A stretch of 64,000 bases of DNA. It comes from Verrucomicrobiia bacterium. Lineage in GTDB: Bacteria > Verrucomicrobiota > Verrucomicrobiia > JADLBR01 > JAIBCM01. This document shows, piece by piece, positions 11,945 through 57,746 of the stretch. The notes beneath the pieces were generated by a model that saw nothing but the letters and a program-made list of their open reading frames with translations, had not been told where the DNA came from and did not search any database. Both the position numbers and the translations under genes were made by a program. Location: contig JAIBCM010000003.1 of NCBI GenBank assembly GCA_019694135.1, positions 198,626 through 262,625 of the forward strand. The letters are read 5' to 3'. Position 1 is the first letter of the stretch, and every line of letters starts with the position of its first letter.

Positions 11945-11956
11945 GGCTCAAGTTAG

Positions 11957-12002: not shown

Positions 12003-12007
12003 TTAAT

Positions 12008-20671: not shown

Positions 20672-20695
20672 CAATAACAAAGAAAGAAAAAAATT

Positions 20696-21148
20696 ATGGA
20701 AACGAGTCTCATCTTATTAAAACCCGATTGTGTCACCAAAAAATTAACCGGAGAAATCATTCGCCGCTTTGAAACAGCTGGATTCCAAATTCGTGGCTTA
20801 AAAATGATGCGTCTCAACAACGCCATCTTAAAAGAACATTACGCGCATCTCATCGATAAACCTTTTTACCCGGAAATCGAATCCTTCATGCAATCCGCGC
20901 CAGTCGTAGCCCTAGCGCTGTCCGGCGAAAATGTCATTGCCCGCATTCGCGATCTCATCGGCCCTACCGACTCGAAAAAAGCCGCTAAAGGCACTGTTCG
21001 CGGCGATTATGGCGTCGACGTCATGGTTAACATCGTTCACGCCTCGGATTCTTTAGAAAATGCCCAACTCGAACTCAAACGTTTTTTTGCTAACAGCGAA
21101 CTCTTTGATTTCGATCCAGCAAAAGTGCCTGTTGGTTCACAACGATAA
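20696..21148 (+). CDS. ndk: Nucleoside diphosphate kinase
   Basis: LILLKPD, NIVHASDS active-site His motif, about 150 aa. Confidence 0.9.
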   Translation: METSLILLKPDCVTKKLTGEIIRRFETAGFQIRGLKMMRLNNAILKEHYAHLIDKPFYPEIESFMQSAPVVALALSGENVIARIRDLIGPTDSKKAAKGTVRGDYGVDVMVNIVHASDSLENAQLELKRFFANSELFDFDPAKVPVGSQR

Positions 21149-37220: not shown

Positions 37221-38490
37221 CACCCGTAATTTTTTTCTTTTTTTCTTCGCTTTCCTCTTGTTGTTCTTGCTGCTCTTGCTTTTCAGATTCAGGGTCTTTG
37301 AGCAAGGGAGATTTTTGCATTTTATCGATCTGTTCTGCAGTCCAGCGTTTGGCATTTGAAGCAGGATCAAATTCTCTATTAATATTACAAACTGCCATAA
37401 CATTTCTTGCATCTTCGGGCTTTGGCGGGCAAGAGTATTTGTCAGCATGATACGGGTAATGATGATCCTGCGTTAAAACATGACCAATTTCATGAGCTAA
37501 AACGAAAGGCACTTTTGTATCAGACATCACAACATTGTTAATACGATTATCATCAGGACTTTTATCGTTTAAAATCGTGTCTTCCTTGTAAATTTTAGCA
37601 TAAGCTACTGCTATATTATCTTTTGAAGGAGGATCCACCTTATCAAACTTGCCCACATAAAAAACCTGAACATCTCTAGGATTTGGAGTTGCTAATTTAT
37701 CAAATAATACCTTTTCATCGCTTTCGCTGAAACCATCCGATAAATTGACACCCTCCGGAACATCGACAGAAACAATATTGGCATTAATCTTAATCCCAAC
37801 CGATGCATAAATCTCATTAGCCTCTTCAACTTGCCTCTCAACATCTTCTCGGCTCGCCGCTTCTTGACCATCTTTTTTAAGAATATTAATGGTTATATCA
37901 AGTTCTTTAACAATAGGCACTTTAGCTGTGGTTGAAATATTTTTTTCAGGATAATCAACCTTAACTTCACCTCCCAGCATTGTTTGAAAGGTTTGATCGC
38001 ATTGCATCACTTTCTTATCACATTGATTATCTTCAATTTTATTTACAACTACAGCATCATCAATGGCATCAGACGTTAATAATAAGGGTTTCGACTCAAA
38101 AATCCCCGACCCTTCTGCCGTTTCGTTTAAGACAACTTTTCTGTCTTTCTCATCATATTTAGGATTTGGATTTTGAGTGGATAATGTAACATTTATTTGT
38201 TTTTCACCACTTTCATTGATATCTTTCAATCGAATAAAAAACTTATTGTCATCGTTATTGGGATCAAAGGTTGCTTTTCCAGGATTAACTCCATCTTTAG
38301 TTTTTACATAATGAGCTTCAACAAAAGATTTTTCCATGGTCCCCACGTTAAGCTCCTCTGTTGGCTTTTTCTCAGCATCAAGAATTTCTAAAACGGGCGG
38401 ACCAGCAGCAGCTTGAAAAACGGTTTGATTAGAGTTTCGATTGGTTTCGGTTTGTTGAGACGACTCTTCAGGTTTTCTGATTTGTCCCAT
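37204..38490 (-). CDS. Hypothetical protein with HExxH zinc-metallopeptidase-like motif (paralogue of 1623..2873)
   Basis: VLAHEIGHVLTQDHH near C-terminus; EIYASVGIKI block aligns with EIYASQGIKL of the paralogue; Glu/Lys-rich C-terminal tail; no signal peptide. Confidence 0.6.
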   Translation of the reverse strand: MGQIRKPEESSQQTETNRNSNQTVFQAAAGPPVLEILDAEKKPTEELNVGTMEKSFVEAHYVKTKDGVNPGKATFDPNNDDNKFFIRLKDINESGEKQINVTLSTQNPNPKYDEKDRKVVLNETAEGSGIFESKPLLLTSDAIDDAVVVNKIEDNQCDKKVMQCDQTFQTMLGGEVKVDYPEKNISTTAKVPIVKELDITINILKKDGQEAASREDVERQVEEANEIYASVGIKINANIVSVDVPEGVNLSDGFSESDEKVLFDKLATPNPRDVQVFYVGKFDKVDPPSKDNIAVAYAKIYKEDTILNDKSPDDNRINNVVMSDTKVPFVLAHEIGHVLTQDHHYPYHADKYSCPPKPEDARNVMAVCNINREFDPASNAKRWTAEQIDKMQKSPLLKDPESEKQEQQEQQEESEEKKKKITGVKQRL

Positions 38491-38585
38491 GAAAAAGACA
38501 TATAAGCTAAAATTAATTATATTTCAAATGCAATATTTTTATTCAACTTGCTCTAAAATTTAGCTTTGTTAGGTTAGACTTTTAT

Positions 38586-39053
38586 ATGAAAGAACAATTC
38601 ATGCGAGAAGCGATCCATATGGCGGATCATGGAATGTGTAAGGGTCATGGAGGGCCGTTTGGAGCGGTTATTGTTAAAGATGGAAAAGTGATCGGTCGCG
38701 GATGCAATCAAGTGACTTCCACCAATGATCCTACCGCTCATGCCGAAATGGTTGCCATTCGTGACGCATGTAAAAATGTGAAAGATTTTTCTCTGGATGG
38801 CGCTGAAATTTACACCAGTTGTGAACCGTGTCCCATGTGTTTAGCAGCGATTTATTGGGCGCGAATTGCTAAAATTTATTACGCGAACACTCGCAAAGAT
38901 GCTGCGGATATTGGGTTTGATGATGATTTTATTTATCGTGAAGTTCCGCTGCCTTTGGAAAAACGTTCGCTCAAGATTGAACCTTTACTGCGCGAAGAAG
39001 CGCAACGCGCTTTTCAAGATTGGCTCAAAAAAGAGGATAAAATTCCTTATTGA
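38586..39053 (+). CDS. guaD: Guanine deaminase, cytidine-deaminase fold (GuaD-type)
   Basis: HAEMVAIR...CEPCPMC zinc motif; overall pattern recalled as similar to small Bacillus-type guanine deaminase; in purine catabolism context. Confidence 0.75.
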   Translation: MKEQFMREAIHMADHGMCKGHGGPFGAVIVKDGKVIGRGCNQVTSTNDPTAHAEMVAIRDACKNVKDFSLDGAEIYTSCEPCPMCLAAIYWARIAKIYYANTRKDAADIGFDDDFIYREVPLPLEKRSLKIEPLLREEAQRAFQDWLKKEDKIPY

Positions 39054-39102
39054 GTCGAAGTTAAAGGCGCGCATCTTATGATAGGATTAAGATGCTGAAT
39101 TT

Positions 39103-40017
39103 ATGACTCATTTTTTTGAACAGATTGCTACTGTGTCGCAATCCGCTCAGCCTGCGGTTTTAGGCATCATTACGCGGGTAAAAGGTTCCAGCCCTCAAAA
39201 GCCCGGCGCTAAAGCGCTTTTTTTCCCGGATGGCCGCATCATCGGAACTTTGGGCGGTGGCTGTTTGGAAGCAGAAATTCAAAAACGGGCGATTGCTTCG
39301 TTGCAAACGCAAAAAGCTGAATCTTTTGATCTGTTGCTAGATCATGATTTTGGTTGGGATGATGGGCTTATTTGTGGTGGTAAAGTTTTTGGCCTTATTT
39401 TACCGCAAGCAATCCAAGAAATTTCGCTTTGGCAAAAACTGGCTCGAAGAGAAGAAAAAATTCGGTGGGGTATTGATGAAAATTTTACTGTCGTAGAAAA
39501 TCCGGTTAAAGATAAGGTTTTATACGAAGAAACCACTTATCCTCCGGTGCATTTATGGATTGCCGGTGCAGGACACATTGCCAAAGCTCTGGCGCCTTTG
39601 GCGGCTTCATTAGATTTTTCTGTAACAGTTTTTGACGATCGCCCTACCCTTGCCAGTCACGAAAATTTTACTAAAGAAATCCAGCTTAAAACCGATTATT
39701 GGGATAATCTTTTAACCATTCGCCCACCCGATCATCAAAAAACGTTTGGCGTAATTGTCACTCGAGGTCATAAACATGACGCCTTGGTGCTACGACATTG
39801 GATTCATTACTCTTTCGACTTTTTAGGAATGATTGGCAGCAAGAGAAAGGTTCAAATTATTCGCGATCACTTTCTCCACGAAAAATTAGCTACTGAAATC
39901 CAATTTAATCGCGTACAATGTCCCGTAGGGATTAATATCGAAGCCCAAAGTCCGCAAGAAATTGCAGTGAGCATTGCAGGTCAATTGATTCAATCGCGTT
40001 CATCATTAATTTTTTAA
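39103..40017 (+). CDS. xdhC: XdhC/CoxI-family xanthine dehydrogenase accessory protein
   Basis: XdhC-like N-terminal domain (GTLGGGCLEAE) and Rossmann-like C-terminal domain. Confidence 0.8.
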   Translation: MTHFFEQIATVSQSAQPAVLGIITRVKGSSPQKPGAKALFFPDGRIIGTLGGGCLEAEIQKRAIASLQTQKAESFDLLLDHDFGWDDGLICGGKVFGLILPQAIQEISLWQKLARREEKIRWGIDENFTVVENPVKDKVLYEETTYPPVHLWIAGAGHIAKALAPLAASLDFSVTVFDDRPTLASHENFTKEIQLKTDYWDNLLTIRPPDHQKTFGVIVTRGHKHDALVLRHWIHYSFDFLGMIGSKRKVQIIRDHFLHEKLATEIQFNRVQCPVGINIEAQSPQEIAVSIAGQLIQSRSSLIF

Positions 40018-43337: not shown

Positions 43338-43814
43338 CTACTCAGGGAAAAATTTTTCAAATTTTACCGTGCCATCTGCCATAACAACGACATTTCCCGA
43401 AGAATATATCTGATTTTTTCCAACAAACAAATAAAGTTGATCTCGATCCTCTGCATAAAAAAAATCTTTAGGACAAACTCCACCATAAAAAAAATCTGGT
43501 AGATCACCTGCTTGATGTTTGGGCTGAGTCGGATCATACCAAGCCTCATCAGGAACACCATAAGCTTTAAGCTGCCTTTGCCACCATTTCATATCACTGG
43601 ACAATTGTTCCGTAGATTTTGCAGTTTCTGGATTCATATCATCAAACATTTTTTGCGCTCCAGAATAAAGTTGTTGAGCACGAGAGAGACACTTGGTTGT
43701 ATTAATGTGCTTACGAAACGTGAAAAATGTGGGTATTGAAATCCCTATCAACAATGCGATTAGAGACATTGTAATTAAAAGTTCTAAAAGAGTAAAAGCC
43801 TTTTGCGATTTCAA
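43338..43814 (-). CDS. Prepilin-type N-terminal cleavage/methylation domain protein (pseudopilin-like)
   Basis: N-terminus KAFTLLELLITMSLIALLIGI matches prepilin leader plus hydrophobic helix. Confidence 0.7.
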   Translation of the reverse strand: MKSQKAFTLLELLITMSLIALLIGISIPTFFTFRKHINTTKCLSRAQQLYSGAQKMFDDMNPETAKSTEQLSSDMKWWQRQLKAYGVPDEAWYDPTQPKHQAGDLPDFFYGGVCPKDFFYAEDRDQLYLFVGKNQIYSSGNVVVMADGTVKFEKFFPE

Positions 43815-43825
43815 ACCTTAAGACA

Positions 43826-44491
43826 TTAACGATAAACTTTCGTTGTGGGAATACCAAAAAAATTCGGAACAGTAGAGATTTTTTTTGCCTCAACTATAAC
43901 ACCTGGGACTGTTTTAGAACTTCTTATAATAGTAACCCCAGTTTGCCTATCAAAATCCACACGCATATTATTGTTATCAGAGGTGTACTCAACGTTACCT
44001 CTCATTATTTTTCCAGGCGCTTTTTTCTGATAAAACATTATTCCTTCAACTAATAATTCAGCTGAAAATCTTTGAATAAATGGAATTTCTACGGGGCCAA
44101 ATGAAAAGGTAATATTCCTATTTTTAGAATCACCTGGTATAGAAATAATATTAGTCCCAGAACCTAGGGTGCTTCCAAAAGGTAAAACCAAAACGGATCC
44201 TCGCGTATTAACTTTTCTTCCCGCAACAAATAAAAACCCTTGCAAAACTCGACCTTCATGAAATCCCAGGGGGCTAAAATTTAAAGTAAAAGTAAAAAGT
44301 CCTCCATTCAAAACAAAAGTAAAACCTTCTCCAGTAGTATCATTAAAAGTAATAGGAATACGTTGTGGTCCAATCATACATTGATAAGTTCCAACAATTT
44401 TAATATCTCGTTCAGCTTGGGCTTTAAGCTGAGTACTGTTAACAAACACTAATGTTAAAACAACAAGTAAAATTATGATTTTTTGTTTCAT
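43826..44491 (-). CDS. Hypothetical secreted protein
   Basis: Signal peptide (MKQKIIILLVVLTLVFVNSTQLKA); no recognised motifs; sits between secretin and prepilin-like genes. Confidence 0.45.
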   Translation of the reverse strand: MKQKIIILLVVLTLVFVNSTQLKAQAERDIKIVGTYQCMIGPQRIPITFNDTTGEGFTFVLNGGLFTFTLNFSPLGFHEGRVLQGFLFVAGRKVNTRGSVLVLPFGSTLGSGTNIISIPGDSKNRNITFSFGPVEIPFIQRFSAELLVEGIMFYQKKAPGKIMRGNVEYTSDNNNMRVDFDRQTGVTIIRSSKTVPGVIVEAKKISTVPNFFGIPTTKVYR

Positions 44492-44495
44492 AGAC

Positions 44496-46892
44496 TTAGC
44501 GGCTTGCAGTTTTTTGTGAAGGTATGACTAATGGTTCAGGTGGATTGACTAATTCTCCTGTTGGCGTAATTAATTTAGGGGTCACAAAAATCACCAAATT
44601 CTTTTTAATCGATTGCTCTACATCTGAACGAAAAAATCGACCTAAAAGAGGAATATCGCCAAGAATGGGAATCTTATCTTTAATTTTTTGAACATCTTCA
44701 CGTAATAAACCGCCTAAAATAACGGTGGACCCATCTTTAACCTGAACACTTGTCTCAATACGTCGAGAATTAAATACTGGCATATTAATAACGTTTTCAG
44801 TTAAAACAAAGGTTTGATCCCCATCAGCTACGGTCATAGGTGTACCATAATTAATAAATCCTTCAAAATCTTCGACCAAAGGAACAAGATTAAGATCAAT
44901 CGTTTGATTATCAGGACCAACCTCCGGGGTGACGTTTAAAATAACACCGACTTCTCTATCAGTAAAATTAGAAGGTTGTGCCGGAGTAATAACAGGCGGC
45001 GGTTGACTAATAAGATTATTAACGTCATTTGCTCCACCACTTGATGTGGTAGGAGGCAATTCAGGAGCATCATAAGTATCAGCATAAGAAAATCGACGAA
45101 CAATTTTTATGGTAGCTTGTTCACCACTACGAGCCACCACTTTCGGCGCTGACAAAAGATCGACTGATTTTTTCTGAGCTAAAGTTCGGATTAAAACATC
45201 AATATTATATTTGGCAATACCCACAGCAAAATTAAAGCTATTGGGTATAGGTCTCGCATCAATACCGTTATTTTGAGAAAGCAAAGCATCGACTGAATTA
45301 GGTTTGATATGAGCCGAACTTCGTAATCCATCAAAATGGTTTAATCCATCCATATCAAGAGGGGAAAAATTACCTGATGGACGAGTATAATTTCCCTCTT
45401 TCACTACGTTCATTGCAATCGAAAGTTCATCAAAATCGGTTTGATTAAGTTCGATAAACTTGGCCTCAATTTCAACCTGAGCAGGAATATCGGTTGGAGA
45501 ACCAACTAAGGCATCAATGAGCTCCAAATTAGCCGGAGAATTTCGAACAGTCAATTTACTGGACGCTGAAGAATAAGAAGCGCTAGCGCCTTCAGGAAAA
45601 GTAACACCTCGTGATTCTAAAACTTTTCGAATATCGGTTTCTCGCTCAAATTGCACTTTTTCCATAAGAGAACGACTAAAAGATCTTCGTGTGCGAGAAC
45701 CCCCTTGTTGTTCTCCACCCGTTTCAACATTAAAAAAGTCTGGTTTAACACGATACTCTTTGGTCAATAACTGATCGGTTGGCGCTGTTAAAGGAAGAAT
45801 ACTCACCGAAAACTCATCCATTTGATATTTTAAATTGGCTAAACGCGTCGCATAACGAATGACTTCCTCTAAAGGAACACTCTGAAGATTTAATGTTACC
45901 TCAGATCCCATTGAGTCAGGAGTTAAACGCGAAACAAAATTAATACCCTTTCTTTCGGGATCGAGTTCTTTACTTTTTACATTGAGAAAATCAATAACAT
46001 CTAAAATGCTAGCTCGATCAAAAGCTACTTGAGGCAGAATAATCGTTTTTAATTTTCTGCTAAGATTTTCTACATTGGAACGTGTTAAAGGGGCATTGGC
46101 AAAAATTCCGGAATCCGAAATCACATCTTTGGGAATGGGCATTTCCCATTTTTCAGTAACTTCAGTCATGCCTTGAAAACGAGCTACTTCTTGAGCTTTT
46201 TTAGCATAACGCAACTTATGATCTAACACCTTATCTAATCGCTTACGTGCCGTGCTATTGAAAGGATCGATCGTCAAAATTTGCTGATATTTTTTCTCTG
46301 CCTCATCAAATTGAGCCGTGTCCAATAAATCATCACCCTCTTGCAACAAAGTATTCACATCTGCCACATCTTTTAAATAACGCGGAGTAATAGCAGGATT
46401 ATCACGTTCAATCATGGGCTTACCCTCTTGATCTAAAGCAATACCCATCGCAGCATACAAACTCGCTCGCTCTGCTTGAATGCGAGAATCTTTAGGCGCA
46501 AAAGATAACGCTTCATCAGCATTCGCTCTAGCTTCATCCAAAAGGTTGGCTTTTAAATTTTCATGAGCTAATTGTATCAAGGCAACGGCTGCCCCATCAT
46601 AAGCCTTATTTTGCAACGGCGCGGTCGCCGGAGAAGGAGCCGGTAAAAGAGCTACAATCGCACGATATTTTTCTAAAGCTTCTTTATAACCTTGCGCTTC
46701 TAACAAAGCATTTCCCTCTCTGAGTAAAGCAGTTCCTCGAATCACAGCTTGTTGACGCTTTAATACTGCAGTTTGAGAAGCTTTTTGTGCGCTGATATAA
46801 TCGGACTGATCAACATTCCCATTCCCTAGCAAAGCCAAAGGTGCTATACCTAATAAAAAGAAACAAAAAATTTTATAATAACAAAGTTTCAT
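44496..46892 (-). CDS. Secretin-family outer-membrane channel protein (PilQ/GspD-like), copy 2
   Basis: C-terminal secretin signature (VILGGLLREDVQKIKDKIPILGDIPLLGRFFRS); signal peptide; TPR-like N-terminal region. Confidence 0.8.
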   Translation of the reverse strand: MKLCYYKIFCFFLLGIAPLALLGNGNVDQSDYISAQKASQTAVLKRQQAVIRGTALLREGNALLEAQGYKEALEKYRAIVALLPAPSPATAPLQNKAYDGAAVALIQLAHENLKANLLDEARANADEALSFAPKDSRIQAERASLYAAMGIALDQEGKPMIERDNPAITPRYLKDVADVNTLLQEGDDLLDTAQFDEAEKKYQQILTIDPFNSTARKRLDKVLDHKLRYAKKAQEVARFQGMTEVTEKWEMPIPKDVISDSGIFANAPLTRSNVENLSRKLKTIILPQVAFDRASILDVIDFLNVKSKELDPERKGINFVSRLTPDSMGSEVTLNLQSVPLEEVIRYATRLANLKYQMDEFSVSILPLTAPTDQLLTKEYRVKPDFFNVETGGEQQGGSRTRRSFSRSLMEKVQFERETDIRKVLESRGVTFPEGASASYSSASSKLTVRNSPANLELIDALVGSPTDIPAQVEIEAKFIELNQTDFDELSIAMNVVKEGNYTRPSGNFSPLDMDGLNHFDGLRSSAHIKPNSVDALLSQNNGIDARPIPNSFNFAVGIAKYNIDVLIRTLAQKKSVDLLSAPKVVARSGEQATIKIVRRFSYADTYDAPELPPTTSSGGANDVNNLISQPPPVITPAQPSNFTDREVGVILNVTPEVGPDNQTIDLNLVPLVEDFEGFINYGTPMTVADGDQTFVLTENVINMPVFNSRRIETSVQVKDGSTVILGGLLREDVQKIKDKIPILGDIPLLGRFFRSDVEQSIKKNLVIFVTPKLITPTGELVNPPEPLVIPSQKTASR

Positions 46893-49454
46893 TTATTTCA
46901 TCCTTCCCTGAGGCTCATTTACTATCCTCAACTCCTGAGGCTCTTGAGTCGAATCCCAACGAGGAACCTCAGCAAAAGTAGGATTATTATCAAAGCTTTG
47001 TGTATCTTCAAAATTACGTTTATTAAAAAGTTCTCCATCAGATCGAATCAAATTACAGGTAACAAAAATCAACAGATTCTTTTTAATGCTTTGATCAATT
47101 TTCGAACGGAAAAGACGCCCTAATAATGGTAAATCGCCCAGTAAAGGAATTTTATCATCAACTTTTTGAATGTCTTCCCGGATTAATCCACCTAATAAAA
47201 CTGTTTGACCATCTTCAATACTCAATCGCGTTTTAACCTCTCGATAATTAAAAACAGGTGTGTTAATAATATTATCAGCGACTTTAACTGCTTGAGACGT
47301 TCCCAAGTCTAAAGCATTAATAGGATTTCCATAATTAATGAATCCTTCAAAATCGACAACTCTAGGTGTTAACTGAAGATCAATCGTTTGATTATCAGGA
47401 TAAAGTTGAGGATTGACCGTCAAAATGACGCCGATCTGCTCATTTTTAAAAGTCGAAGGAGTTGAAGGAGTCACAGCACGGTAGCCATTTCCACTCGGCA
47501 ACTGTGAAATAGACGCATCAATTTGAGGTGGCTCAATAGCTTGAGGATCAGGATAAAAAAAGTCGCGAGCAATACGAATTTCAGCATCTTGAGAAGGTTT
47601 AGTGACTACTTTGGGCACAGCTAAAAGATCAGCACCCGTTTTTTGTGAAAGCGCATAAACTAACAATTCAAACTTATACTTACTTAATGAAATCGCACTT
47701 TGAAACGCTGTTCCTAAAGGCCCTGCAAAAGCGGTAGCGGCTCCTGCTAATAAAGCATCAAAAGTATTAGCATTAATAGCATTTCCTCCCACTGCTAAAT
47801 CTACCGGTAATCCCAAAACCTCCGTTGAAGCCGAAGGAGCTGAAGTTCTTAAACCAGGAGTATCAGTTGGAGCCGATTGAGAACGTCCTCTTCGATTAAT
47901 ATTCCAACGGAAAGAAAGCTCATCCAAATCAGTCTGATTCACCTCCATAAAACGAGTTTCGATTTGAACCTGAGGAACTTCCTGACTTTCCGAACTAATC
48001 ACACTTTCAATCAAAGCTAAATTATCCAATGTATTTCGAACTACGAGCAAACTTCCATTCGACAAATAATTAGCCGAGGAGCCGGGAGGAAATTGAACAC
48101 CATAAGTTTCTAATTTTGTCTTCACTTCTTCACGAGCAATATTGACTGATTCACTTAACGTGCCACCGTCCTTGCTCTCAATTTTCGCGCCAATAAAACC
48201 CGCTGGCACTTGGAACGTGCGAGTAAATAACGCCTCAATATTTTCTGAAGCCGGCGCCACTAAAACTGCATATTCCTCCACTTTATAGATCAAATCCGCT
48301 TGTTTTGCGATAAGATCCAAAACCGCGGCCAAAGGCAAATTTTCTAAGTTCAAAGTAATGCGACGCGCATCAATCGTTTCAATCGAAACCTGCTCGCCAG
48401 CGCTCGGTTGACTTTCTGCAGCATCTGAAACAGTTGCAATCGTGGTCTTCAAAACAAAATTCAAACCTTGCCCAGTCGGATCTAACTCTTTGGATTTAGC
48501 CTGTAAAAAAGTCACCGCTTCTTCCACCGATGCTTCGTCAAAATTAATTTTATCAATAATAATATTGTTTAACTTTTCCTCAATACGTGCCGTATTCGAC
48601 AAACTCGCAGCAGAAACACTTCTCTCTTCGCGAGGCTTCAAAATATTACGATTCACCGGATTACTCCAAGCTTTCGTCACTTCATAAAGCATTTCTTTAC
48701 GACTATTCTCTTTAGCATCTTTGGCATATTTCAAACGCAGTTGAGAAACTCGCTTCAAACCGTCCTGTGCAGCCTTATTATAAGGATCAATCGCCAAAAC
48801 CTTTTTAAAGTTTTCTTCTGACTTAATATATTGCCCAGTTTCGCGCTGTTTTTCGCCTAAATCCAAAAGCCGTTTCACTTCTCCAACAGCTTGCACAAAC
48901 TCAGGTGTCACTGCAGAATTGGGCTCAATTACCAATCCCTCACCCGATTGTTTTTGAATCGTCTTAGCAAGTTTCTGCAACTCCTTATCTTCAGGAGAAT
49001 AAGCTAACGCCTCAGAAACATAGCCTCCTGCTGTCTGAAATTTTCGCGTTTCCAAAGCCTCCTCAGCCAAACGCATATTAGCCATCGTCAACCCCTCAGC
49101 CGCAGCCTGATAAAGATCGAAAGTATTCGTTGTCATCGGCAAATTCTGCAAAACAAAACGATAACGATCCGCTGCAGAAACATATTCTTTAGCGGAATAA
49201 AGCTGTTCGCCTTCCACTAAAGCTTTTTTGCTGCCAGTAAAAAGTTTTTGTCGTCGCGCTGTTTCATTTTGCAAAGCGCGATCAACTGCTGCATTTTCAG
49301 CATAAACCATGTTTTGCGTCAAAAAAATGGAACCTAAGAAAAAACCAAGACAAAAGAAACGATTGCTACCCTTCAATCTCATAAAGTAAGTCGATAGTGA
49401 ATAGAGCCTTTCTTGAATGCAAGAATTAATTTCCCTTATTTTTAAAATATTCAA
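46893..49454 (-). CDS. Secretin-family outer-membrane channel protein (PilQ/GspD-like), copy 1
   Basis: C-terminal secretin signature (VLLGGLIREDIQKVDDKIPLLGDLPLLGRLFRS); paralogous throughout to copy 2; start possibly the internal Met before the hydrophobic segment. Confidence 0.8.
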   Translation of the reverse strand: MNILKIREINSCIQERLYSLSTYFMRLKGSNRFFCLGFFLGSIFLTQNMVYAENAAVDRALQNETARRQKLFTGSKKALVEGEQLYSAKEYVSAADRYRFVLQNLPMTTNTFDLYQAAAEGLTMANMRLAEEALETRKFQTAGGYVSEALAYSPEDKELQKLAKTIQKQSGEGLVIEPNSAVTPEFVQAVGEVKRLLDLGEKQRETGQYIKSEENFKKVLAIDPYNKAAQDGLKRVSQLRLKYAKDAKENSRKEMLYEVTKAWSNPVNRNILKPREERSVSAASLSNTARIEEKLNNIIIDKINFDEASVEEAVTFLQAKSKELDPTGQGLNFVLKTTIATVSDAAESQPSAGEQVSIETIDARRITLNLENLPLAAVLDLIAKQADLIYKVEEYAVLVAPASENIEALFTRTFQVPAGFIGAKIESKDGGTLSESVNIAREEVKTKLETYGVQFPPGSSANYLSNGSLLVVRNTLDNLALIESVISSESQEVPQVQIETRFMEVNQTDLDELSFRWNINRRGRSQSAPTDTPGLRTSAPSASTEVLGLPVDLAVGGNAINANTFDALLAGAATAFAGPLGTAFQSAISLSKYKFELLVYALSQKTGADLLAVPKVVTKPSQDAEIRIARDFFYPDPQAIEPPQIDASISQLPSGNGYRAVTPSTPSTFKNEQIGVILTVNPQLYPDNQTIDLQLTPRVVDFEGFINYGNPINALDLGTSQAVKVADNIINTPVFNYREVKTRLSIEDGQTVLLGGLIREDIQKVDDKIPLLGDLPLLGRLFRSKIDQSIKKNLLIFVTCNLIRSDGELFNKRNFEDTQSFDNNPTFAEVPRWDSTQEPQELRIVNEPQGRMK

Positions 49455-49460
49455 AATTAA

Positions 49461-50426
49461 TTATTGACTTGGAATCTGTAGCATTTCCTTTTCCGTGCCA
49501 TCTTCCGATAAAGCCATAATCTCCGCACCGGTTTCACTCAAATTTTTCACGCGATAATTTATTCCGCGAAACGTAATCTCTTGAGCTTTTTCTACAGGAT
49601 AATTTTTATTTTCTAATAAATCTACCAACGTTCCCGTTAAAATGGGCGCATCCGACACCTGTTTCATTACCAACGTTAAACGTTCGCCTGTCACCTCATT
49701 CACCACGTCCAACTCCGATTCATCATAAGGCAACATCACTCCTTGCATTTTAGGATTTTCTCGTTCCCCTTTTTTCTCGCGATATTCTTCCACTCGCCAA
49801 TCTTCAAACTTATCACCTTTTTTCACAGAATTGGAACGATGTCTTCGATCGCGCGGATGGGAAAGCTTGACTTGGAAAAATGTCTGTCCTCCCACTTCGT
49901 TGACCCCAGTAAACTCCAGCGAATACGGTTTCGCCTCAAAATTCGTCAAACGCAATTTCGTTGTAAAAGGGGGATGCGATTCCGCCTTCAAGGGATCCGT
50001 CTTGCCCAAATACTCATCCTTATTCGTAAAACCATCTTTATCGGGATCCTGATCTGCGACGGTTGGATCACTCAGACTAAAACCATACTGTTCTTTCCAC
50101 AATGGCGCAATCCCATCAACCCCCGCTTCATCAGGTCGATACAATTTCAACTTACGCTCATCCGCCAACCATTCCAACTTTCGAGAAATAAACAAACGAT
50201 GCCCATTCTCAGCAGCCTTCCACTCCTCATTTTGATCCAACTCTTTTCCCAAATCTTGATATTGATCCAAATCCTCACGGACCTTTGCATTGCCACCCAA
50301 CACTTCCGCCACCGCTTGGGGAGGAGCTGTAGAAAAAGACAACGCTTTAAAAATGGCGACGCCCAATAAAATTAACAACACGCTAAACAACAACGTCCAT
50401 TCAATATTTTTTTTTGCCCAATTCAT
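49461..50426 (-). CDS. Hypothetical membrane-anchored protein (possible PilP-like component)
   Basis: N-terminal TM helix; position between pilO-like gene and secretin; assignment by context only. Confidence 0.4.
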   Translation of the reverse strand: MNWAKKNIEWTLLFSVLLILLGVAIFKALSFSTAPPQAVAEVLGGNAKVREDLDQYQDLGKELDQNEEWKAAENGHRLFISRKLEWLADERKLKLYRPDEAGVDGIAPLWKEQYGFSLSDPTVADQDPDKDGFTNKDEYLGKTDPLKAESHPPFTTKLRLTNFEAKPYSLEFTGVNEVGGQTFFQVKLSHPRDRRHRSNSVKKGDKFEDWRVEEYREKKGERENPKMQGVMLPYDESELDVVNEVTGERLTLVMKQVSDAPILTGTLVDLLENKNYPVEKAQEITFRGINYRVKNLSETGAEIMALSEDGTEKEMLQIPSQ

Positions 50427-51394
50427 TTTTTAACACTCACATTTTCATCACTCTGCCAATTAATATAATCAATTCTCATCGTAATGCGAATCGTCTCCTC
50501 ACCTAAAATCAAATTAGCCGCCACACTTTTAGGACCTTCCGAAGTTGCGCCCTTAGTCTTCAAATCCTCTACTGTCGGCGGTTCCCCTCGTTCATTAATA
50601 ACCTCCAAAGAACGCACTATCCAAAAAGGCTGAGCGCCATTTTCCTGGCCTTCCCCACCTCTTTCATTCAAAGCATCCACAATTTTTCTCAAACTCGTAT
50701 CCGTTCCGACAAATTGAAAAACAAATGGAAGAGTTCGATAAAAAAGCCCTTCGCGATCCAATGACATAGCGGGCAACAACTCTCCCAACTCCCCCTCACT
50801 TCCACGCACAGGTTGTCGAGTTGCTGCGGCCGCTCCAGAACTTTGGGTTAGCAAATCTTCCACAGGCAAACGCGACACACTCTTTAACTCATTAATTCCC
50901 GATTCAAATAACAACTGCGTCAACCGCTCAATAATTCTCAACTCTTGCGTTAAAAACACCGTCGCCTCCGGCGCTGGAATACTGGTTAAATAGCGACCAA
51001 ACCCAAACGAAAAATTTTCTGGTAATGTAACAGGATTTCTTGCCTTTTGCGCCATCTCCACCAAACGATCGCGCGTATTGCGAAATTCCGTTTGAAAATC
51101 GATCGGATTCAAAGCCTCGCCTTGAATTTGTCCCTGCTTCAATTCAGCAATAGCCGGCTGTAAATAACTTTCCAACTGCTGCGCCTTCTCCTGATAAACT
51201 TTCGTATTGGCCTCACTCGGAAACACCGATTGCCCACGATAACGCGATAACGTCATCGCCTGCGACTCCAAATCCGTATTCAACGAACTCACCCGTTGCC
51301 CTTCATGCCACCAAAAATAACCGCCCACTGCACTAATCACTATCGCCACCAACAGCGCCTGAGAAGTTTCACGATTTTTCTTAAACCAATCCAT
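50423..51394 (-). CDS. PilO-like pilus assembly protein (putative)
   Basis: N-terminal TM helix followed by coiled-coil-like region; follows pilM-pilN fusion; 4-nt overlap with downstream gene. Confidence 0.45.
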   Translation of the reverse strand: MDWFKKNRETSQALLVAIVISAVGGYFWWHEGQRVSSLNTDLESQAMTLSRYRGQSVFPSEANTKVYQEKAQQLESYLQPAIAELKQGQIQGEALNPIDFQTEFRNTRDRLVEMAQKARNPVTLPENFSFGFGRYLTSIPAPEATVFLTQELRIIERLTQLLFESGINELKSVSRLPVEDLLTQSSGAAAATRQPVRGSEGELGELLPAMSLDREGLFYRTLPFVFQFVGTDTSLRKIVDALNERGGEGQENGAQPFWIVRSLEVINERGEPPTVEDLKTKGATSEGPKSVAANLILGEETIRITMRIDYINWQSDENVSVKK

Positions 51395-51423: not shown

Positions 51424-53205
51424 TTAAGGCACCAAAGGAATCGGCGTCTTTAGCTTTGCCTTAATTTTAAAATTCAATGCCAACCGCTTTTCTTCCACCG
51501 AAACCACATCTACCGTCACCAACTTGGGATCGGCTATATCCTGCTCTGTCATCGCAAAAAATTGAGATTGCGGAAATTTCTTCAAAAAATTACCAATCAC
51601 TTCCTGTCCATCAATTCGCAAATCCGGCGTTTGCAAATCAGCCGGATTAATATTTTCATACGACCCCTCAATCAATAAATGCGTGATCTGCGTCGCATCC
51701 GCAGCAGCAGACTGAGGCTTGCCCGTAGTGCGCTTGGGCGGCGCTGTAATCGGACTCACCACCATCGGCAACTCCCGATCATCAAAAGCCGGTTTCAAAG
51801 CAGTAATCCAGACTCCCACAGGAATCATCGTATTTAACTCCTTCAACAAACCTGGCCAATAACGACGCATCTTAATTAAGCCATCAATCTGCTCCGCCTC
51901 ACTCAAAGCCTTCTCATATCGCGTCTGCACTGCTTTCAACTCACGATTCGCCGACTCCAAAGTGCCTACCTCGCCCGAAATCGTTGCTAACTGCGCTTGC
52001 AAAATATTTCCTTTACGCCAATGACTCGCCCATAGCACCCCAAACAAAACCACCAAAGCCGCCGCCAATGCCACTTGCAAACTGCGTCTTTTTCCCGAAG
52101 CTCGTGACGCCTCAACACTTGCCGGCACCAAATTAATATCTAACGGACAAGGCCCTGTTGCATGCAACGCCAAACCCACCGTCTCGCCCAACCAAGCCGC
52201 CGAACGCACCAACGTCTCACGCGAAATCGAAGGGGCCACAGCCACATTCCGTAAAGGATTAAAAAATTCAATTGGCACACGCAACTTTTCCGAAAAGAAA
52301 AGATCCATATAAGCCAACAAACTCGATCCACCAGTTAACAAAATTCGCATCGGAGCGCTGCCCCCTTGTTGACTGCGATAAGACACGATCGAACGCGACA
52401 CTTCTGAATGCAAACGCGTTAAAATGCCGCGAATCACCTTGGAAATGCGGGCCGCCGTTGCATCATCGGGATCTGCATAAGCGCCACCTAACCCCACAAA
52501 CCCTTTTTCCTGCTTCAACTGCTCTGCTTCAGCAAACGACAATTGCATATCCGTTGCAATCGCCTGAGTAATCTGATTGCCACCAATCGGCACACCACGA
52601 ATGAAAATTTTACCATCTTCCGCAAAAATGAGTTGAGTCGATTTCGCGCCAATATCTAAAATCAACGTGCAACCTTCATAATCGGGATAATTAAAACGAA
52701 ACGCATTATAAAGCGATAAAGGTCCCACGCCTACACGCTCCGCAACACAACCCGTCGCGCTCACCCCCGAATTGATACGATCCAACATCTCTGCCTTAAT
52801 CGCAACAATCACGGCCTCCAAATCCGAATTCTTCACCGATTGAACTAACTGATAATCCCACACCACTTGATCCATGGGGAAAGGAACATTCTGTTGCGCT
52901 TCAAAGCGCACCATCTGCGTAACCTGCTCAGGAGCTGAAGGAGGCAACTTCACAAAACGCGTAAAAACCGATTGACCCGAAATACAATAATAAATCGAAG
53001 TGCCTTGACTTATCTTGCCCGTCAAAACCCGCCGCAACACATTGGCAACAGCTTTCTCTCGCTCCTCTTCCGAGGCTCCTTCCAACGCAATTGTCTCAAT
53101 GACTGCCCCCTCCAACAATAAGCCACCCGCTGTAGAACTATAAAAACCCACACTAATACTGTGGCTACCTAAATTAATCGCAATTACCCTACCGCTTTTA
53201 CTCAT
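51424..53205 (-). CDS. pilM: Type IV pilus assembly protein PilM fused to PilN-like domain
   Basis: Actin-like ATPase N-terminal part (IAINLGSHSISVG...); internal TM helix (LQVALAAALVVLFGVLWA) preceded by LDINLVP PilN-type start; 593 aa. Confidence 0.7.
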   Translation of the reverse strand: MSKSGRVIAINLGSHSISVGFYSSTAGGLLLEGAVIETIALEGASEEEREKAVANVLRRVLTGKISQGTSIYYCISGQSVFTRFVKLPPSAPEQVTQMVRFEAQQNVPFPMDQVVWDYQLVQSVKNSDLEAVIVAIKAEMLDRINSGVSATGCVAERVGVGPLSLYNAFRFNYPDYEGCTLILDIGAKSTQLIFAEDGKIFIRGVPIGGNQITQAIATDMQLSFAEAEQLKQEKGFVGLGGAYADPDDATAARISKVIRGILTRLHSEVSRSIVSYRSQQGGSAPMRILLTGGSSLLAYMDLFFSEKLRVPIEFFNPLRNVAVAPSISRETLVRSAAWLGETVGLALHATGPCPLDINLVPASVEASRASGKRRSLQVALAAALVVLFGVLWASHWRKGNILQAQLATISGEVGTLESANRELKAVQTRYEKALSEAEQIDGLIKMRRYWPGLLKELNTMIPVGVWITALKPAFDDRELPMVVSPITAPPKRTTGKPQSAAADATQITHLLIEGSYENINPADLQTPDLRIDGQEVIGNFLKKFPQSQFFAMTEQDIADPKLVTVDVVSVEEKRLALNFKIKAKLKTPIPLVP

Positions 53206-53252: not shown

Positions 53253-54032
53253 TTAAGGACTGTTTGTCTCCATCATAGTAGTCACCTCCGGTCGAGGCAA
53301 AGGCGCCGTCATGCGAGGCATCGCGCTACTACCACCACTACCCGACTCTCTTAAAGGCGGATAATGTTCCCAATAATCCATCGCCCAAGGCGTCTTCGTA
53401 ATTGGCATTAACACCCCTGTCTTACCACCTTTTAAAAACCAGTCTGCTTCCGCCACCCGCTCAGCGCGACGTGTCTCCGCCCAAGACACTCGCTTTCCAT
53501 CTACAAACACTTCCGCTGCCATCGCTGACTGCTTAAAAGCTTGTTCTCCGCCATACATTTCCACCTGAAACGGCGACAAATAAGCCGAAGCAAAATAACC
53601 TTCGCCCAAAGCCAAAGGCCCGTAATGCAATTCTATCGACAAAACTTCCTGATCCAAATCCTGCGGCCGTTGCGGCTGCGGCGTTAAAAGATGAAGCTTC
53701 ACCATCACATCCTGAAAAAAACCGCCCCCCGGCTGCTCCAACTCTTCCCGAGACAATCGCGGATTCAAACTATATTCCACCTCAACTTCCAACCATTTCA
53801 TACGCGGCCCTCTTAAAGGATCCGAAGGCCGTTTCAATTCCACAGCATTCACACCACGTTTCGGCGTTTCAACAAATTCTATTTTAATATTATTAGGTTT
53901 AATCTCAAACCCTGGCACCTGGTCAAAATTTTCCTGATCAGAAAAAGGCATTGGATCTTGAGGCTCTTGTCCTCCTACCACCATACAACTCCCTACCAAT
54001 GCCGCTACTAAGATAAAAAAGTGTCGGCTCAT
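53253..54032 (-). CDS. Hypothetical secreted protein, first gene of the pilus-like locus
   Basis: Signal peptide (MSRHFFILVAALVGSCMVVG); Pro/Gln-rich; no recognised motifs. Confidence 0.4.
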   Translation of the reverse strand: MSRHFFILVAALVGSCMVVGGQEPQDPMPFSDQENFDQVPGFEIKPNNIKIEFVETPKRGVNAVELKRPSDPLRGPRMKWLEVEVEYSLNPRLSREELEQPGGGFFQDVMVKLHLLTPQPQRPQDLDQEVLSIELHYGPLALGEGYFASAYLSPFQVEMYGGEQAFKQSAMAAEVFVDGKRVSWAETRRAERVAEADWFLKGGKTGVLMPITKTPWAMDYWEHYPPLRESGSGGSSAMPRMTAPLPRPEVTTMMETNSP

Positions 54033-56354: not shown

Positions 56355-57746
56355 TTACCAAGGACTAGGCATCCCCCAACCCTTAGTCTGAGCAGCTTCA
56401 CCAGCAATCCTAGCAGGTTCTTGAAAAGCTTGGCGGAGTTTATCGCCAGCTGGCCTGACCAAATGTTCATTGGCTAGTTCAGCTCCTTTACCAACAGCCG
56501 GGGCTACCATCTCTCCCACCTTACCACCCGCTGCTATGCCTGTTTTTACTACTGGTACAACCACAGGAGCAACTACATGCTCTGCTACAGGCAACACCAC
56601 GTGGTCAACTGCTGCATCTACTGCCGGGTTAATGGCATAACAAAGTCCTACAGTCTCCACACAATCAGCTACATCAATCACATCAAGAGCGGCCTCTCCT
56701 AATTCAGCCCCCCTCTTTAACGCTTCTCTAGCCACCACACCCGCTCCCAAAGGATGCTCTCGACCAGACGGCTCTGGCTCTTCAGAAACCTGACTCACGT
56801 AAGCCACACCGCTTACCACAACAATCTTTTCAGATTTTGCCAGATAATTCCTAGATCTTGATTCGAGACTATTCAACAACTTATAGAAACATGCATCCGC
56901 CTCACGATAATCGTCCCAAGCTTGACGAAGTCTATCCGTATTTGGCTTTATTTGGGTATTGCCTAACTCTTCTGATAGAACACGTGAAAAAATTTCCAAT
57001 TTCTCATTCTGATTAATAGTAACCTGTAAAAATTCGTCAAAATACTCAGCCAAAGCTTTAGCTTCAGCAGCAAGTTCACGACTAGCCTTACTAGGATTTA
57101 ATGCTGCAATCTCATTAGCATGATGCAAAGCTTCTTTAGATATCTTATTCATTTCTTTCATAGAATGAATGAAACCTTTATTATCAGATATTATTCCTCC
57201 TACATCACTCAAAATATCGTTCCAAAAATAAATTTCTTCAGATGAATGAATTTTTTTTGGGGCTTTTGGGGCAATCGAAGATGATGGATCACCAAAATAA
57301 TTATCCATTCTTTTTCTGATGCTCGCCAAAGCCTTAATGTAGGAAAAATCAAAACCCCTAACTCCTCTATTAAATTCATGTCCAGCCTGAGCTAAACGAG
57401 CAGCGTGATAATAAGGCTTATCAACATGGCTCGCAAGCCTAGCGAATCGTGCCTTTTTATAAGCTTCTTGAGCCTCTTGAATTCCATAAAGATCTTTATA
57501 TGCTTCATCACAAGCATGATTAGCTTCTAAGAAAGCTTTTTCATTTTCTGGAGTAGAATCGGCTCGAAATCTTTGTTTCGCCAGAGTCATCTGGTCATGC
57601 GCTTCGTATGCTAGCTTATGAGCCTCTTCCAATTCCTCTGCAGCAAAGGGTGGGATCTCTATCTCTCTAGGCTTCGAACCGCTAATCCTATCCCAAGCAT
57701 CACCAAGTTTTCTTCTCCAACCACTTTTGCTACCACCTTTACCCAT
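56355..57746 (-). CDS. Hypothetical Ala-rich protein, compositionally atypical
   Basis: 463 aa, no recognised catalytic motifs; N-terminus MGKGGSKSGWRRK; codon usage looks different from neighbours by eye (frequent CTAG); flanked by repeat loci. Confidence 0.5.
   Translation of the reverse strand: MGKGGSKSGWRRKLGDAWDRISGSKPREIEIPPFAAEELEEAHKLAYEAHDQMTLAKQRFRADSTPENEKAFLEANHACDEAYKDLYGIQEAQEAYKKARFARLASHVDKPYYHAARLAQAGHEFNRGVRGFDFSYIKALASIRKRMDNYFGDPSSSIAPKAPKKIHSSEEIYFWNDILSDVGGIISDNKGFIHSMKEMNKISKEALHHANEIAALNPSKASRELAAEAKALAEYFDEFLQVTINQNEKLEIFSRVLSEELGNTQIKPNTDRLRQAWDDYREADACFYKLLNSLESRSRNYLAKSEKIVVVSGVAYVSQVSEEPEPSGREHPLGAGVVAREALKRGAELGEAALDVIDVADCVETVGLCYAINPAVDAAVDHVVLPVAEHVVAPVVVPVVKTGIAAGGKVGEMVAPAVGKGAELANEHLVRPAGDKLRQAFQEPARIAGEAAQTKGWGMPSPW

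What the first reader, a model, noticed from the sequence alone, without database searches (positions are those of the whole stretch)
44496..49454. Tandem duplicated secretin genes
Two adjacent full-length secretin genes (798 and 853 aa) with zero intergenic gap, both with the C-terminal secretin signature and related TPR-like N-terminal regions. Most pilus or type II loci have one secretin; a pair suggests a hetero-oligomeric or two-layer channel.
Basis: partly seen in the sequence, partly recalled or inferred. Interest (0 to 1): 0.55.

Follow-up and report, generated by a model that had tools for sequence, protein, structure and literature searches.

The report
Conserved tandem pair of pilus secretins
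A verrucomicrobial pilus-type operon (the Akkermansia Amuc_1098-1102 type) carries two old, intact, back-to-back copies of its outer-membrane channel gene instead of one, and this arrangement, which recurs in several lineages, makes a mixed two-protein secretin channel a testable idea but does not prove it.

Summary
Two intact secretin genes lie head-to-tail on the minus strand. sec1 is 46893-49382 (829 aa from the likely ATG; the 853-aa TTG ORF is over-extended). sec2 is 44496-46892 (798 aa). The sec1 stop abuts the sec2 ATG (TAA|ATG), and a GGGAAGGA Shine-Dalgarno sits inside the end of sec1.

They are old paralogues, not an assembly artefact: 35% identical over their full length, both with dN/dS about 0.05. 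Both have the same predicted plan: signal peptide, TPR/helical domain, N0/STN-like domain, N3-like domain, secretin barrel.

Both are Amuc_1098-type secretins (Akkermansia "PilQ"). They follow homologues of Amuc_1102, 1101 (PilM-like), 1100 and 1099, so this is that known operon with its secretin doubled.

Of 82 related loci, 13 have a tandem pair, 47 are clearly single and 22 are too cut to tell. The window's pair sits in a clade made only of paired genes, and its duplication predates that clade's deep split. At least two other lineages duplicated independently. Gaps are -4 to +25 nt in all pairs but one.

A mixed ring is my leading reading (about 0.4). Two separate homomeric channels is nearly as likely. 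No description of such pairs was found in the literature searched. This is a new variant of a known kind, of moderate interest.

The parts
53253..54032 (-). Amuc_1102-related pilus-like protein (259 aa), first gene of the cluster
   Evidence: NCBIfam NF042424, E = 8.8e-10, 38.5 bits, below the cut-off of 55. The orthologues in L081 and L082 carry Pfam Amuc_1102.
51424..53205 (-). Amuc_1101-family PilM-like protein (593 aa): PilM/actin-like ATPase fold followed by a membrane-anchored C-terminal part
   Evidence: Pfam PilM_2, 1.2e-31. NCBIfam Amuc_1101_fam, 539 bits, full length.
50423..51394 (-). Amuc_1100-family protein (323 aa)
   Evidence: NCBIfam NF038287, 4.6e-34. A weak sequence match to the solved Amuc_1100 structures 6kny and 6lad, E = 4e-5.
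49461..50426 (-). Amuc_1099-family pilus-like system protein (321 aa)
   Evidence: NCBIfam NF042425, 114.8 bits, above the cut-off of 50.
46893..49382 (-). sec1, the upstream Amuc_1098-type secretin (829 aa from the ATG at 49382; the ORF is open up to the TTG at 49454). Domains in window coordinates: TPR/helical 48666-49304, N0/STN-like 48210-48596, N3-like 47973-48125, secretin barrel 47046-47972, disordered C-terminal tail 46896-47045.
   Evidence: Pfam Secretin 113 bits, weak STN match. NCBIfam Amuc_1098_fam 597.5 bits. AF2 model m4620195461f8, pLDDT 78.7. Domain mapping. dN/dS 0.060 against L082.
46890..46908 (-). Junction between the two genes: GGGAAGGA (46908-46901), an 8-nt spacer that contains the sec1 stop TAA (46895-46893), then the sec2 ATG (46892-46890)
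   Evidence: Read directly from the sequence. The same stop|ATG abutment is present in L081 and L082. Gaps are -4 to +25 nt in the other pairs, except L032 at about 73 nt.
44496..46892 (-). sec2, the downstream Amuc_1098-type secretin (798 aa). Domains in window coordinates: TPR/helical 46146-46808, N0/STN-like 45750-46076, N3-like 45480-45632, secretin barrel 44568-45479.
   Evidence: Pfam Secretin 123.6 bits plus TPR_2. NCBIfam Amuc_1098_fam 622 bits. AF2 model m456cd40fe30f, pLDDT 81.7. Foldseek top hit is V. cholerae competence-pilus PilQ 6w6m, 1e-20. dN/dS 0.051.
43826..44491 (-). 221-aa secreted protein of unknown family, 4 nt downstream of sec2, probably in the same operon
   Evidence: No Pfam or NCBIfam match. 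Conserved in the same position only in L081 and L082.
43338..43814 (-). 158-aa prepilin-type protein (N-terminal methylation motif)
   Evidence: Pfam N_methyl, 3.9e-7; TIGR02532. Conserved in L081, L082 and L001.

Best explanation
This is the verrucomicrobial pilMNOPQ-like operon known from Akkermansia (Amuc_1102-1101-1100-1099-1098), with the secretin gene present as an ancient tandem paralogue pair.

Shown: both genes are intact and have the same domain plan (signal peptide, TPR/helical domain, N0/STN-like, N3-like, secretin barrel). Both are under equally strong purifying selection. They sit in the operon with no intergenic base, and a ribosome-binding site for sec2 lies inside the end of sec1. 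The pair has been inherited together across a deep clade of Verrucomicrobiota.

Inferred: the two are co-transcribed and translationally coupled. Both are exported and inserted in the outer membrane. Both work with the single Amuc_1101/1100/1099 inner-membrane and periplasmic set encoded upstream.

My preferred mechanism is an inference and is not shown: sec1 and sec2 co-assemble into one mixed secretin complex through which the pilus-like filament passes. The ancestral homomer's duplicates would have started as a mixed ring and then become mutually dependent.
For: Identity and context: Secretin and TPR domains. Full-length Amuc_1098-family matches of 622 and 597 bits, and Amuc_1099 to 1102 homologues directly upstream. 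Secretin fold plus TPR in both AF2 models.

Both copies functional: dN/dS is 0.060 and 0.051, with almost equal dN (0.086 and 0.088), against L082. Of 100 family-conserved positions, 82 (sec1 group) and 79 (sec2 group) are kept.

Coupling: TAA|ATG with GGGAAGGA 8 nt upstream. Gaps are -4 to +25 nt in 11 of 12 pairs measured. No terminator-like site above chance lies between the genes.

Age and co-inheritance: sec1 and sec2 each have orthologues at 95/94, 86, about 80, 53 and about 47-50% identity. At least three of these orthologue pairs have matching contig lengths, and two were confirmed as adjacent genes on one contig. In the NJ tree, a clade made only of paired secretins has 84-96% bootstrap support, and sec1 and sec2 are sisters in only 0-3% of replicates. 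All upstream copies share a shorter linker and all downstream copies share a short N0 loop.

Recurrence: independent duplications in Chthoniobacterales/Terrimicrobiaceae and in L057, always secretin-secretin directly after the Amuc_1099 homologue wherever the upstream region is held.

Only one set of partner genes is encoded next to the two secretins.

From general knowledge, not tested here: duplicates of homomers start as heteromers and often stay so when co-expressed, and the pIV secretins of phages f1 and IKe form mixed multimers when co-produced (Kazmierczak et al. 1994).
Against: No computation here tests physical co-assembly. The secretin assemblies among the solved-structure matches, and all I know of from general knowledge, are built from a single secretin species (homo-oligomers of 12-15 subunits). 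Tandem duplicates are adjacent and co-transcribed simply because of how they arise, so adjacency is weak evidence. Divergence is greatest in the periplasmic TPR (30% identity) and N0 (35%) domains and least in the barrel (49%). That pattern is also what one expects if the two copies dock to different partners. The rest of the genome, with its ATPase, platform and any second system, is not visible in the window. The deep order of the four subclades is unresolved.
Confidence: 0.42

Rival explanations
1. There are two separate homo-oligomeric channels. After duplication the paralogues became insulated from each other, and each forms its own ring with a distinct task (for example pilus extrusion versus DNA uptake or protein secretion, or use under different conditions). 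They would share or alternate on the same Amuc_1101/1100/1099 platform, or dock to a second system encoded elsewhere.
For: The solved secretin assemblies matched here contain a single secretin species. Paralogue divergence is concentrated in the TPR and N0 domains (30-35% identity), which in other secretins mediate piloting and system-specific docking, and the barrel is more conserved at 49%. sec2 orthologues have changed several family-conserved N0/N3 positions that sec1 orthologues keep (G316, L345, A362, A438, T452). Many bacteria have several secretins for different machines (general knowledge).
Against: No second set of partner genes accompanies the second secretin in any of the 13 paired loci. 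The genes have stayed abutting, without acquiring separate regulation or moving apart, in all three independent origins. No genome among the 80 GTDB loci shows a dispersed second Amuc_1098-type copy.
Confidence: 0.4
2. One copy is no longer a pore subunit. It would be a degenerate or accessory protein, such as a pilotin-like or scaffold protein that helps the other copy reach or insert into the outer membrane, or that forms a periplasmic ring (the "two-layer" idea).
For: The family carries a TPR module resembling the TPR pilotins PilF/PilW/TadD (TIGR02521 weak hit; RcpA-TadD among the fold matches; noted for Amuc_1098 in PMC4960237). A duplicate could specialise on that role. One family-conserved acidic residue (sec2 position 600) is R/K in all sec2 orthologues.
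Against: Both copies keep a complete secretin barrel that is predicted with high confidence and includes the C-terminal conserved block. Both keep about 80% of family-conserved positions. The barrel is the most conserved part between the paralogues and within each orthologue group. dN/dS is equal in the two.
Confidence: 0.1
3. The pair is an artefact, or a recent and functionally redundant duplication on its way to losing one copy.
For: In the closest MAG (L081) the sec2 orthologue is split into 640 + 176 aa.
Against: The two genes are 35% identical in protein, with DNA similarity only in 418 nt. The L081 assembly also splits other genes that are intact here (PilM-like 509+70, MoCoBD 227+183), which points to indel errors in that assembly. 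The pair is intact in L082 and L001, and both orthologue series reach about 47% identity. Both copies are under strong purifying selection.
Confidence: 0.02

Closest known systems
Amuc_1098 ("PilQ") of Akkermansia muciniphila and the Amuc_1098-1102 pilus-like gene cluster
   Same: Both window proteins match NCBIfam NF042912 over their full length. Both have the N-terminal TPR and C-terminal secretin architecture. The gene order is the same after the Amuc_1102, 1101, 1100 and 1099 homologues. Amuc_1098 is an outer-membrane protein and the most abundant one in A. muciniphila (PMC4960237).
   Different: Akkermansia (L080, L036, L031, L078) and 47 of the 60 informative loci have one secretin, whereas here there are two paralogues. 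Both score below the family's curated cut-off (622 and 597 bits against 750), with only about 31-33% identity to Akkermansia-type members. The whole pair clade lacks a Gly-rich stretch present in other members.
Type IVa pilus secretin PilQ (TIGR02515; solved structures include V. cholerae 6w6m, P. aeruginosa 6ve2, M. xanthus 3jc8)
   Same: This is the best solved-structure match by sequence and by fold. N0, N3 and the secretin domain are collinear. The gene lies at the end of a pilM-led operon.
   Different: The score is below the PilQ family cut-off (124-129 bits against 284). No match to the AMIN domains of classical PilQ was detected; there is a fused TPR domain instead, whereas classical systems use a separate TPR pilotin (PilF/PilW). 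Classical pilMNOPQ operons have a single pilQ, to my knowledge.
Type II secretion secretin GspD and other secretins (MshL, HofQ, SctC, RcpA, phage pIV)
   Same: They share the secretin barrel (Pfam PF00263; fold matches at E = 1e-14 to 1e-18).
   Different: All scores are far below the family cut-offs (for example GspD 130 against 351). There is no run of several N-domains ahead of the barrel and no gsp gene context.
Mixed multimers of phage f1 and IKe pIV secretins (experimental co-expression; cited from my own knowledge, Kazmierczak et al. 1994)
   Same: It is a precedent that two diverged secretins can enter one multimer.
   Different: That case was an artificial combination of two phages' proteins, not a pair encoded and conserved together in one operon.

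Membership tests
Secretin superfamily (Pfam PF00263) | C-terminal secretin domain scoring above the Pfam gathering threshold | tested here: met
   123.6 bits (sec2) and 113 bits (sec1) against 27.5, each covering the whole 169-position profile.
Secretin superfamily (Pfam PF00263) | Secretin beta-barrel fold preceded by an N3-type domain | tested here: met
   AF2 models with pLDDT 81.7 and 78.7. For the sec2 model, the top 40 Foldseek PDB matches are all secretins, E = 1e-20 to 7e-10.
Secretin superfamily (Pfam PF00263) | Forms a 12-15-mer outer-membrane channel | not testable with these tools
   This needs biochemistry or cryo-EM. No multimer prediction tool was available.
Amuc_1098 family type IV pilus outer membrane protein (NCBIfam NF042912) | Full-length match above the curated cut-off of 750 bits | tested here: not met
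   622.1 bits (sec2, profile positions 19-804 of 805) and 597.5 bits (sec1, 20-804). The matches are end to end at E = 1e-186 and 4e-179 but below 750. I therefore file them as a divergent sister group of the equivalog, not as equivalogs.
Amuc_1098 family type IV pilus outer membrane protein (NCBIfam NF042912) | N-terminal TPR domain fused to a C-terminal secretin | tested here: met
   TPR_2/TPR_14 hits. Helical repeat domain at residues 29-249 (sec2) and 27-239 (sec1) in the models, with TPR proteins among the fold matches.
Amuc_1098 family type IV pilus outer membrane protein (NCBIfam NF042912) | Encoded directly after Amuc_1101, 1100 and 1099 homologues | tested here: met
   for the window. 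The same order is present in most of the 82 related loci.
Type IVa pilus PilQ (TIGR02515) | Score above the family cut-off of 284 | tested here: not met
   123.6 and 128.6 bits.
Type IVa pilus PilQ (TIGR02515) | N-terminal AMIN domain(s) | tested here: not met
   No AMIN match appeared in the Pfam scan at E <= 0.01. The N-terminus is helical/TPR in both models.
Type II secretion GspD (TIGR02517) | Score above the cut-off of 351, and gsp gene context | tested here: not met
   130.3 and 124.2 bits. No gsp genes were found among the flanking ORFs scanned.
Hetero-oligomeric secretin (hypothetical class) | Both paralogues present in one multimer | not testable with these tools
   Only indirect evidence exists: abutting genes, equal constraint, co-inheritance and recurrence.

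The most novel reading that the evidence does not exclude
sec1 and sec2 form an obligate hetero-oligomeric secretin ring, for example alternating subunits in an even-numbered ring. It would be the first natural mixed secretin. Such pairs would have arisen at least three times independently in Verrucomicrobiota by duplication of the TPR-fused Amuc_1098-type secretin, making this a repeated case of a homomeric outer-membrane channel becoming a heteromer.
Probability: 0.35. Interest if true: 0.7.

Novelty: new variant of a known kind. Interest (0 to 1): 0.45.

Why it matters
Every secretin channel described so far, in type II and type III secretion, type IV pili, Tad pili and filamentous phages, is built from one secretin protein. 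A secretin paralogue pair that is conserved, translationally coupled and recurrently evolved inside a single pilus operon gives a concrete, cloneable test of whether mixed secretin rings exist in nature. It would also show how a homomeric ring becomes a heteromer.

The locus is also the environmental counterpart of the Akkermansia Amuc_1098-1102 cluster, whose products (Amuc_1100, Amuc_1098) are studied for their effects on the host. Knowing that whole lineages run this machine with two secretins bears on how the machine is built.

If the two copies instead form separate channels, the finding is an ordinary case of paralogue specialisation.

Tried and rejected
1. Exact-sequence look-up of sec2 found nothing. 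The window's own genome is not in that collection, so relatives were used instead.

2. I first read the family-conserved Arg of the GLR motif (sec2 R524) as lost in sec1 orthologues, which would have been complementary degeneration. Re-alignment with sec1 as the reference aligns sec1 R530 to that column, and the raw block shows TPGLRT. The claim was dropped as an alignment artefact.

3. NJ bootstrap analysis with three distance corrections could not resolve whether the window group and the Methylacidiphilales-like group share one duplication. The up+up grouping got 30-47% support, dn+dn 8-10%, and Mup+Mdn 42-62%. The only firm result is that sec1 and sec2 are not sisters (0-3%). The indel characters favour one duplication. 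No maximum-likelihood tree program was available.

4. The promoter and terminator scan gave counts at or below the shuffled expectation and says nothing about the transcription units.

5. Literature searches for tandem, second, heteromeric or duplicated secretins, for Verrucomicrobia secretins and for Methylacidiphilum secretins returned nothing relevant. These searches cover only the open-access library.

6. The split sec2 orthologue in L081 was rejected as evidence of a pseudogene, because other genes in that MAG are split in the same way.

7. Pfam scans of ten further large ORFs of the window found no PilB/PilC/PilT or Gsp genes, so the motor of the system is encoded elsewhere.

8. No multimer structure prediction was available, so sec1/sec2 interfaces could not be compared with sec1/sec1 or sec2/sec2 interfaces.
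Full report
**1. Observation**

The ORF list shows two long minus-strand ORFs at exactly the stated positions: 46893..49454 (853 aa from a TTG) and 44496..46892 (798 aa from an ATG). The upstream stop TAA (46895-46893) is followed directly by the downstream ATG (46892-46890). A GGGAAGGA Shine-Dalgarno motif lies 8 nt upstream of that ATG, inside the end of the upstream gene.

The 853-aa length is an artefact of taking the first possible start. The ATG at 49382 gives 829 aa beginning with a typical signal peptide, and it corresponds to the start of the 830-aa orthologue called in a related metagenome contig. I call the genes sec1 (upstream, 46893-49382) and sec2 (downstream).

Both contain a complete Pfam Secretin domain (113 and 123.6 bits; threshold 27.5) and N-terminal TPR matches. 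They align over their whole length at 35% identity (E = 3e-145). At the DNA level only 418 nt of the barrel region are recognisably similar, at 69%, and there is no third secretin in the window.

**2. What the genes are**

NCBIfam places both proteins, end to end, in the Amuc_1098 family of "type IV pilus outer membrane proteins". The scores are 622 and 597 bits, E = 1e-186 and 4e-179. Both are below the curated equivalog cut-off of 750, and both are far above any PilQ, GspD, MshL, HofQ or SctC model, all of which stay below their own cut-offs.

The four genes directly upstream are homologues of Amuc_1099, Amuc_1100, Amuc_1101 (PilM-like; Pfam PilM_2, 1e-31) and Amuc_1102. Downstream, at gaps of 4 and 11 nt, follow a 221-aa secreted protein with no family match and a 158-aa prepilin.

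The locus is therefore the pilMNOPQ-like "Amuc_1098-1102" cluster known from Akkermansia muciniphila. There, Amuc_1098 was named PilQ, shown to be in the outer membrane, and found to be the most abundant outer-membrane protein (PMC4960237). No PilB/PilC/PilT or Gsp genes were found among the ten other large ORFs of the window that I scanned.

**3. Domain plan of both copies**

AlphaFold2 models were built with a 148-sequence family alignment. Mean pLDDT was 81.7 for sec2 and 78.7 for sec1. Both models give the same plan:

| Element | sec2 residues | sec1 residues |
|---|---|---|
| Helical/TPR domain, after the signal peptide | 29-249 | 27-239 |
| Alpha/beta N0/STN-like domain | 273-381 | 263-391 |
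| N3-like domain, after a disordered linker | 421-471 | 420-470 |
| Secretin barrel | 472-775 | 471-779 |

- sec1 has a weak Pfam STN hit in the N0-like domain, and many family members carry PF07660.
- sec1 also has a disordered 50-residue C-terminal tail.
- For the sec2 model, Foldseek against the PDB returns only secretins in the first 40 places. The top hit is the V. cholerae competence-pilus PilQ 6w6m (1e-20), followed by BfpB, XcpQ, GspD, InvG, RcpA and pIV. TPR proteins follow.
- A sequence search of the PDB agrees and aligns N0 through the barrel collinearly with PilQ.
- Paralogue identity per domain is 30% (TPR), 35% (N0), 41% (N3) and 49% (barrel).

**4. Are both copies functional?**

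Against the orthologous pair in L082 (86% aa identity), dN/dS is 0.060 for sec1 and 0.051 for sec2, with almost equal dN (0.086 and 0.088). Of 100 positions conserved in at least 85% of other family members, the sec1 orthologue group keeps 82 and the sec2 group keeps 79.

The closest MAG (L081, GCA_041395165.1, 94-95% identity) has sec2 split into 640 + 176 aa. The same assembly also splits the PilM-like gene and a molybdoenzyme gene that are intact here, so I attribute this to indel errors and not to decay. Neither copy is a pseudogene.

**5. Distribution and history**

A scan of one genome per GTDB species returned 80 loci, all from Verrucomicrobiota. With two loci from close relatives this gives 82 loci:

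| Category | Loci |
|---|---|
| Tandem pair | 13 |
| Single copy, with at least 2.5 kb visible on both sides | 47 |
| Too cut to tell | 22 |

Wherever the upstream region is held, the order is Amuc_1101-1100-1099-secretin(-secretin), and no paired locus has a second set of the partner genes.

I built a neighbour-joining tree of the 95 secretins.

- The window's two genes fall in a clade that consists only of paired genes (93% bootstrap; 84-96% in a re-analysis).
- That clade has four well-supported subclades. Two are the upstream and downstream copies of the window group (window, L081, L082, L001; 100% each). Two are the upstream and downstream copies of a group that includes a Methylacidiphilales MAG (L046, L068, L075, L010; 93% and 86%).
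- The order of these four subclades is unresolved. sec1 and sec2 are sisters in only 0-3% of replicates, so the duplication predates the split of the two groups.
- Shared indels favour a single duplication: a shorter linker in all upstream copies and a short N0 loop in all downstream copies. Mostly reciprocal BLAST preferences point the same way.
- Each paralogue has its own orthologue series, down to about 47-53% identity. At least three of these orthologue pairs have matching contig lengths, and two were confirmed as adjacent genes on one contig.

Two further duplications are independent. One is in Chthoniobacterales/Terrimicrobiaceae (L003, L006, L013, L032, L033; upstream and downstream clades each 100%). 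The other is in a Verrucomicrobiales genome (L057; 91%).

The intergenic distance is -4 to +25 nt in all pairs but one; in L032 it is about 73 nt.

**6. How it most likely works**

*Shown.* There are two intact, co-inherited, equally constrained secretin paralogues. They are encoded back to back in one operon with a ribosome-binding site arrangement typical of translational coupling, next to a single set of PilM/N/O/P-like partner genes.

*Inferred.* Both are exported, inserted in the outer membrane and used by the same pilus-like machine.

*Preferred mechanism (confidence about 0.4).* The two co-assemble in one mixed ring. My reasons are these:
- Duplicates of a homomer necessarily begin as a mixed assembly.
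- Co-expression has been kept in all three independent origins.
- No lineage within the pair clade is seen to have lost one copy.
- There is only one set of partner genes.
- Diverged secretins can mix. Phage f1 and IKe pIV do so when co-produced; this is from my own knowledge and was not tested here.

*Main rival (about 0.4).* There are two separate homomeric channels with different partners or tasks. This fits the fact that the solved secretin assemblies I know of each contain a single secretin species. It also fits the stronger divergence of the TPR and N0 domains, and the loss in sec2 orthologues of several family-conserved N0/N3 residues that sec1 orthologues keep.

*Minor rivals.* One copy acting as a non-pore accessory protein (about 0.1) is disfavoured by the intact, well-conserved barrels. 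An artefact or a decaying recent duplicate (0.02 or less) is refuted. Nothing here specifically supports a stacked two-layer channel.

**7. Comparison with what is known, and novelty**

The proteins are secretins: the superfamily features I could test were met. They are the nearest relatives of the Amuc_1098 family in architecture and context but fall below its equivalog cut-off. They are not classical PilQ (no AMIN domain detected, below cut-off) and not GspD.

The operon is a known kind. What is new is a conserved, recurrently evolved tandem secretin pair within it. Searches of the open-access literature found no description of such pairs or of natural heteromeric secretins. NCBI annotates the closest orthologues as hypothetical proteins. 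I rate it a new variant of a known kind.

**8. Verdict**

Interest is moderate, at 0.45. For most readers this is a gene duplication in a known operon. For secretin specialists it offers a clean, testable candidate for the first natural mixed secretin. I give that reading a probability of about 0.35, and it would deserve an interest of about 0.7 if true.

Noticed in passing
window 43826-44491 (-): A 221-aa protein with a signal peptide and no Pfam or NCBIfam match lies 4 nt downstream of sec2 and upstream of a prepilin gene. Homologues were found only in the two closest relatives (L081, L082). It may be a lineage-specific component of the pilus system.
   Followed up: partly
window 49383-49454 (-): The mechanical ORF for sec1 starts at a TTG 24 codons upstream of the likely ATG start, so the 853-aa length in the finding is over-extended. 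With the ATG, the gap to the Amuc_1099-like gene is 78 nt.
   Followed up: yes
L081 (GCA_041395165.1, JAWLBA010000004.1) 3697-5474, 10001-12395, 19668-20965: In this closely related MAG several genes that are intact in the window are split in two (PilM-like 509+70 aa, sec2 640+176 aa, molybdopterin-binding domain 227+183 aa). This looks like indel errors of that assembly rather than biology.
   Followed up: partly
window 33411-40017: A block that looks like purine or xanthine catabolism. It holds a fused 1269-aa xanthine-dehydrogenase-type enzyme (Fer2, FAD_binding_5, MoCoBD domains in one chain), a cytidine/guanine-deaminase-like gene (38586-39053) and XdhC (39103-40017). A 428-aa protein with a reprolysin-like HExxH motif lies on the opposite strand (37204-38490), overlapping the end of the dehydrogenase gene by 17 nt.
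   Followed up: no
window 57984-59234 (+): A 416-aa secreted protein with two internal repeats of about 150 aa (INDNFANRIPL... and INDDFANAQPL...) and no Pfam match. The neighbouring 463-aa protein (56355-57746) also has no Pfam match.
   Followed up: no
sec2 residues about 496-562 (window about 45207-45407) and the same region in L001, L010, L046, L068, L075, L081, L082: All secretins of the pair-only clade lack the Gly-rich stretch (GGGT...G / YPF) that other Amuc_1098-family members carry between the first barrel hairpin and the GLR motif. This is a clade-specific deletion in a loop that is predicted with low confidence.
   Followed up: partly
sec2 residue 600 (window 45093-45095) and sec1 residue 607 (829-aa numbering; aligned column in alignment A2): The family-conserved Glu of the "VREF" strand is Arg or Lys in all seven sec2 orthologues, and Asp, Glu, Gln or Lys in the sec1 orthologues. 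This fixed charge reversal is a candidate paralogue-specific contact.
   Followed up: no
L010 (CAWEXI010000002.1) 8622-10816 and L052 (CAVXLY010000005.1): The secretin and PilM-like genes in these long-contig MAGs are broken into several overlapping ORFs. The upstream secretin copy of L010 is therefore visible only as fragments. It was counted as a pair, but with lower certainty.
   Followed up: partly
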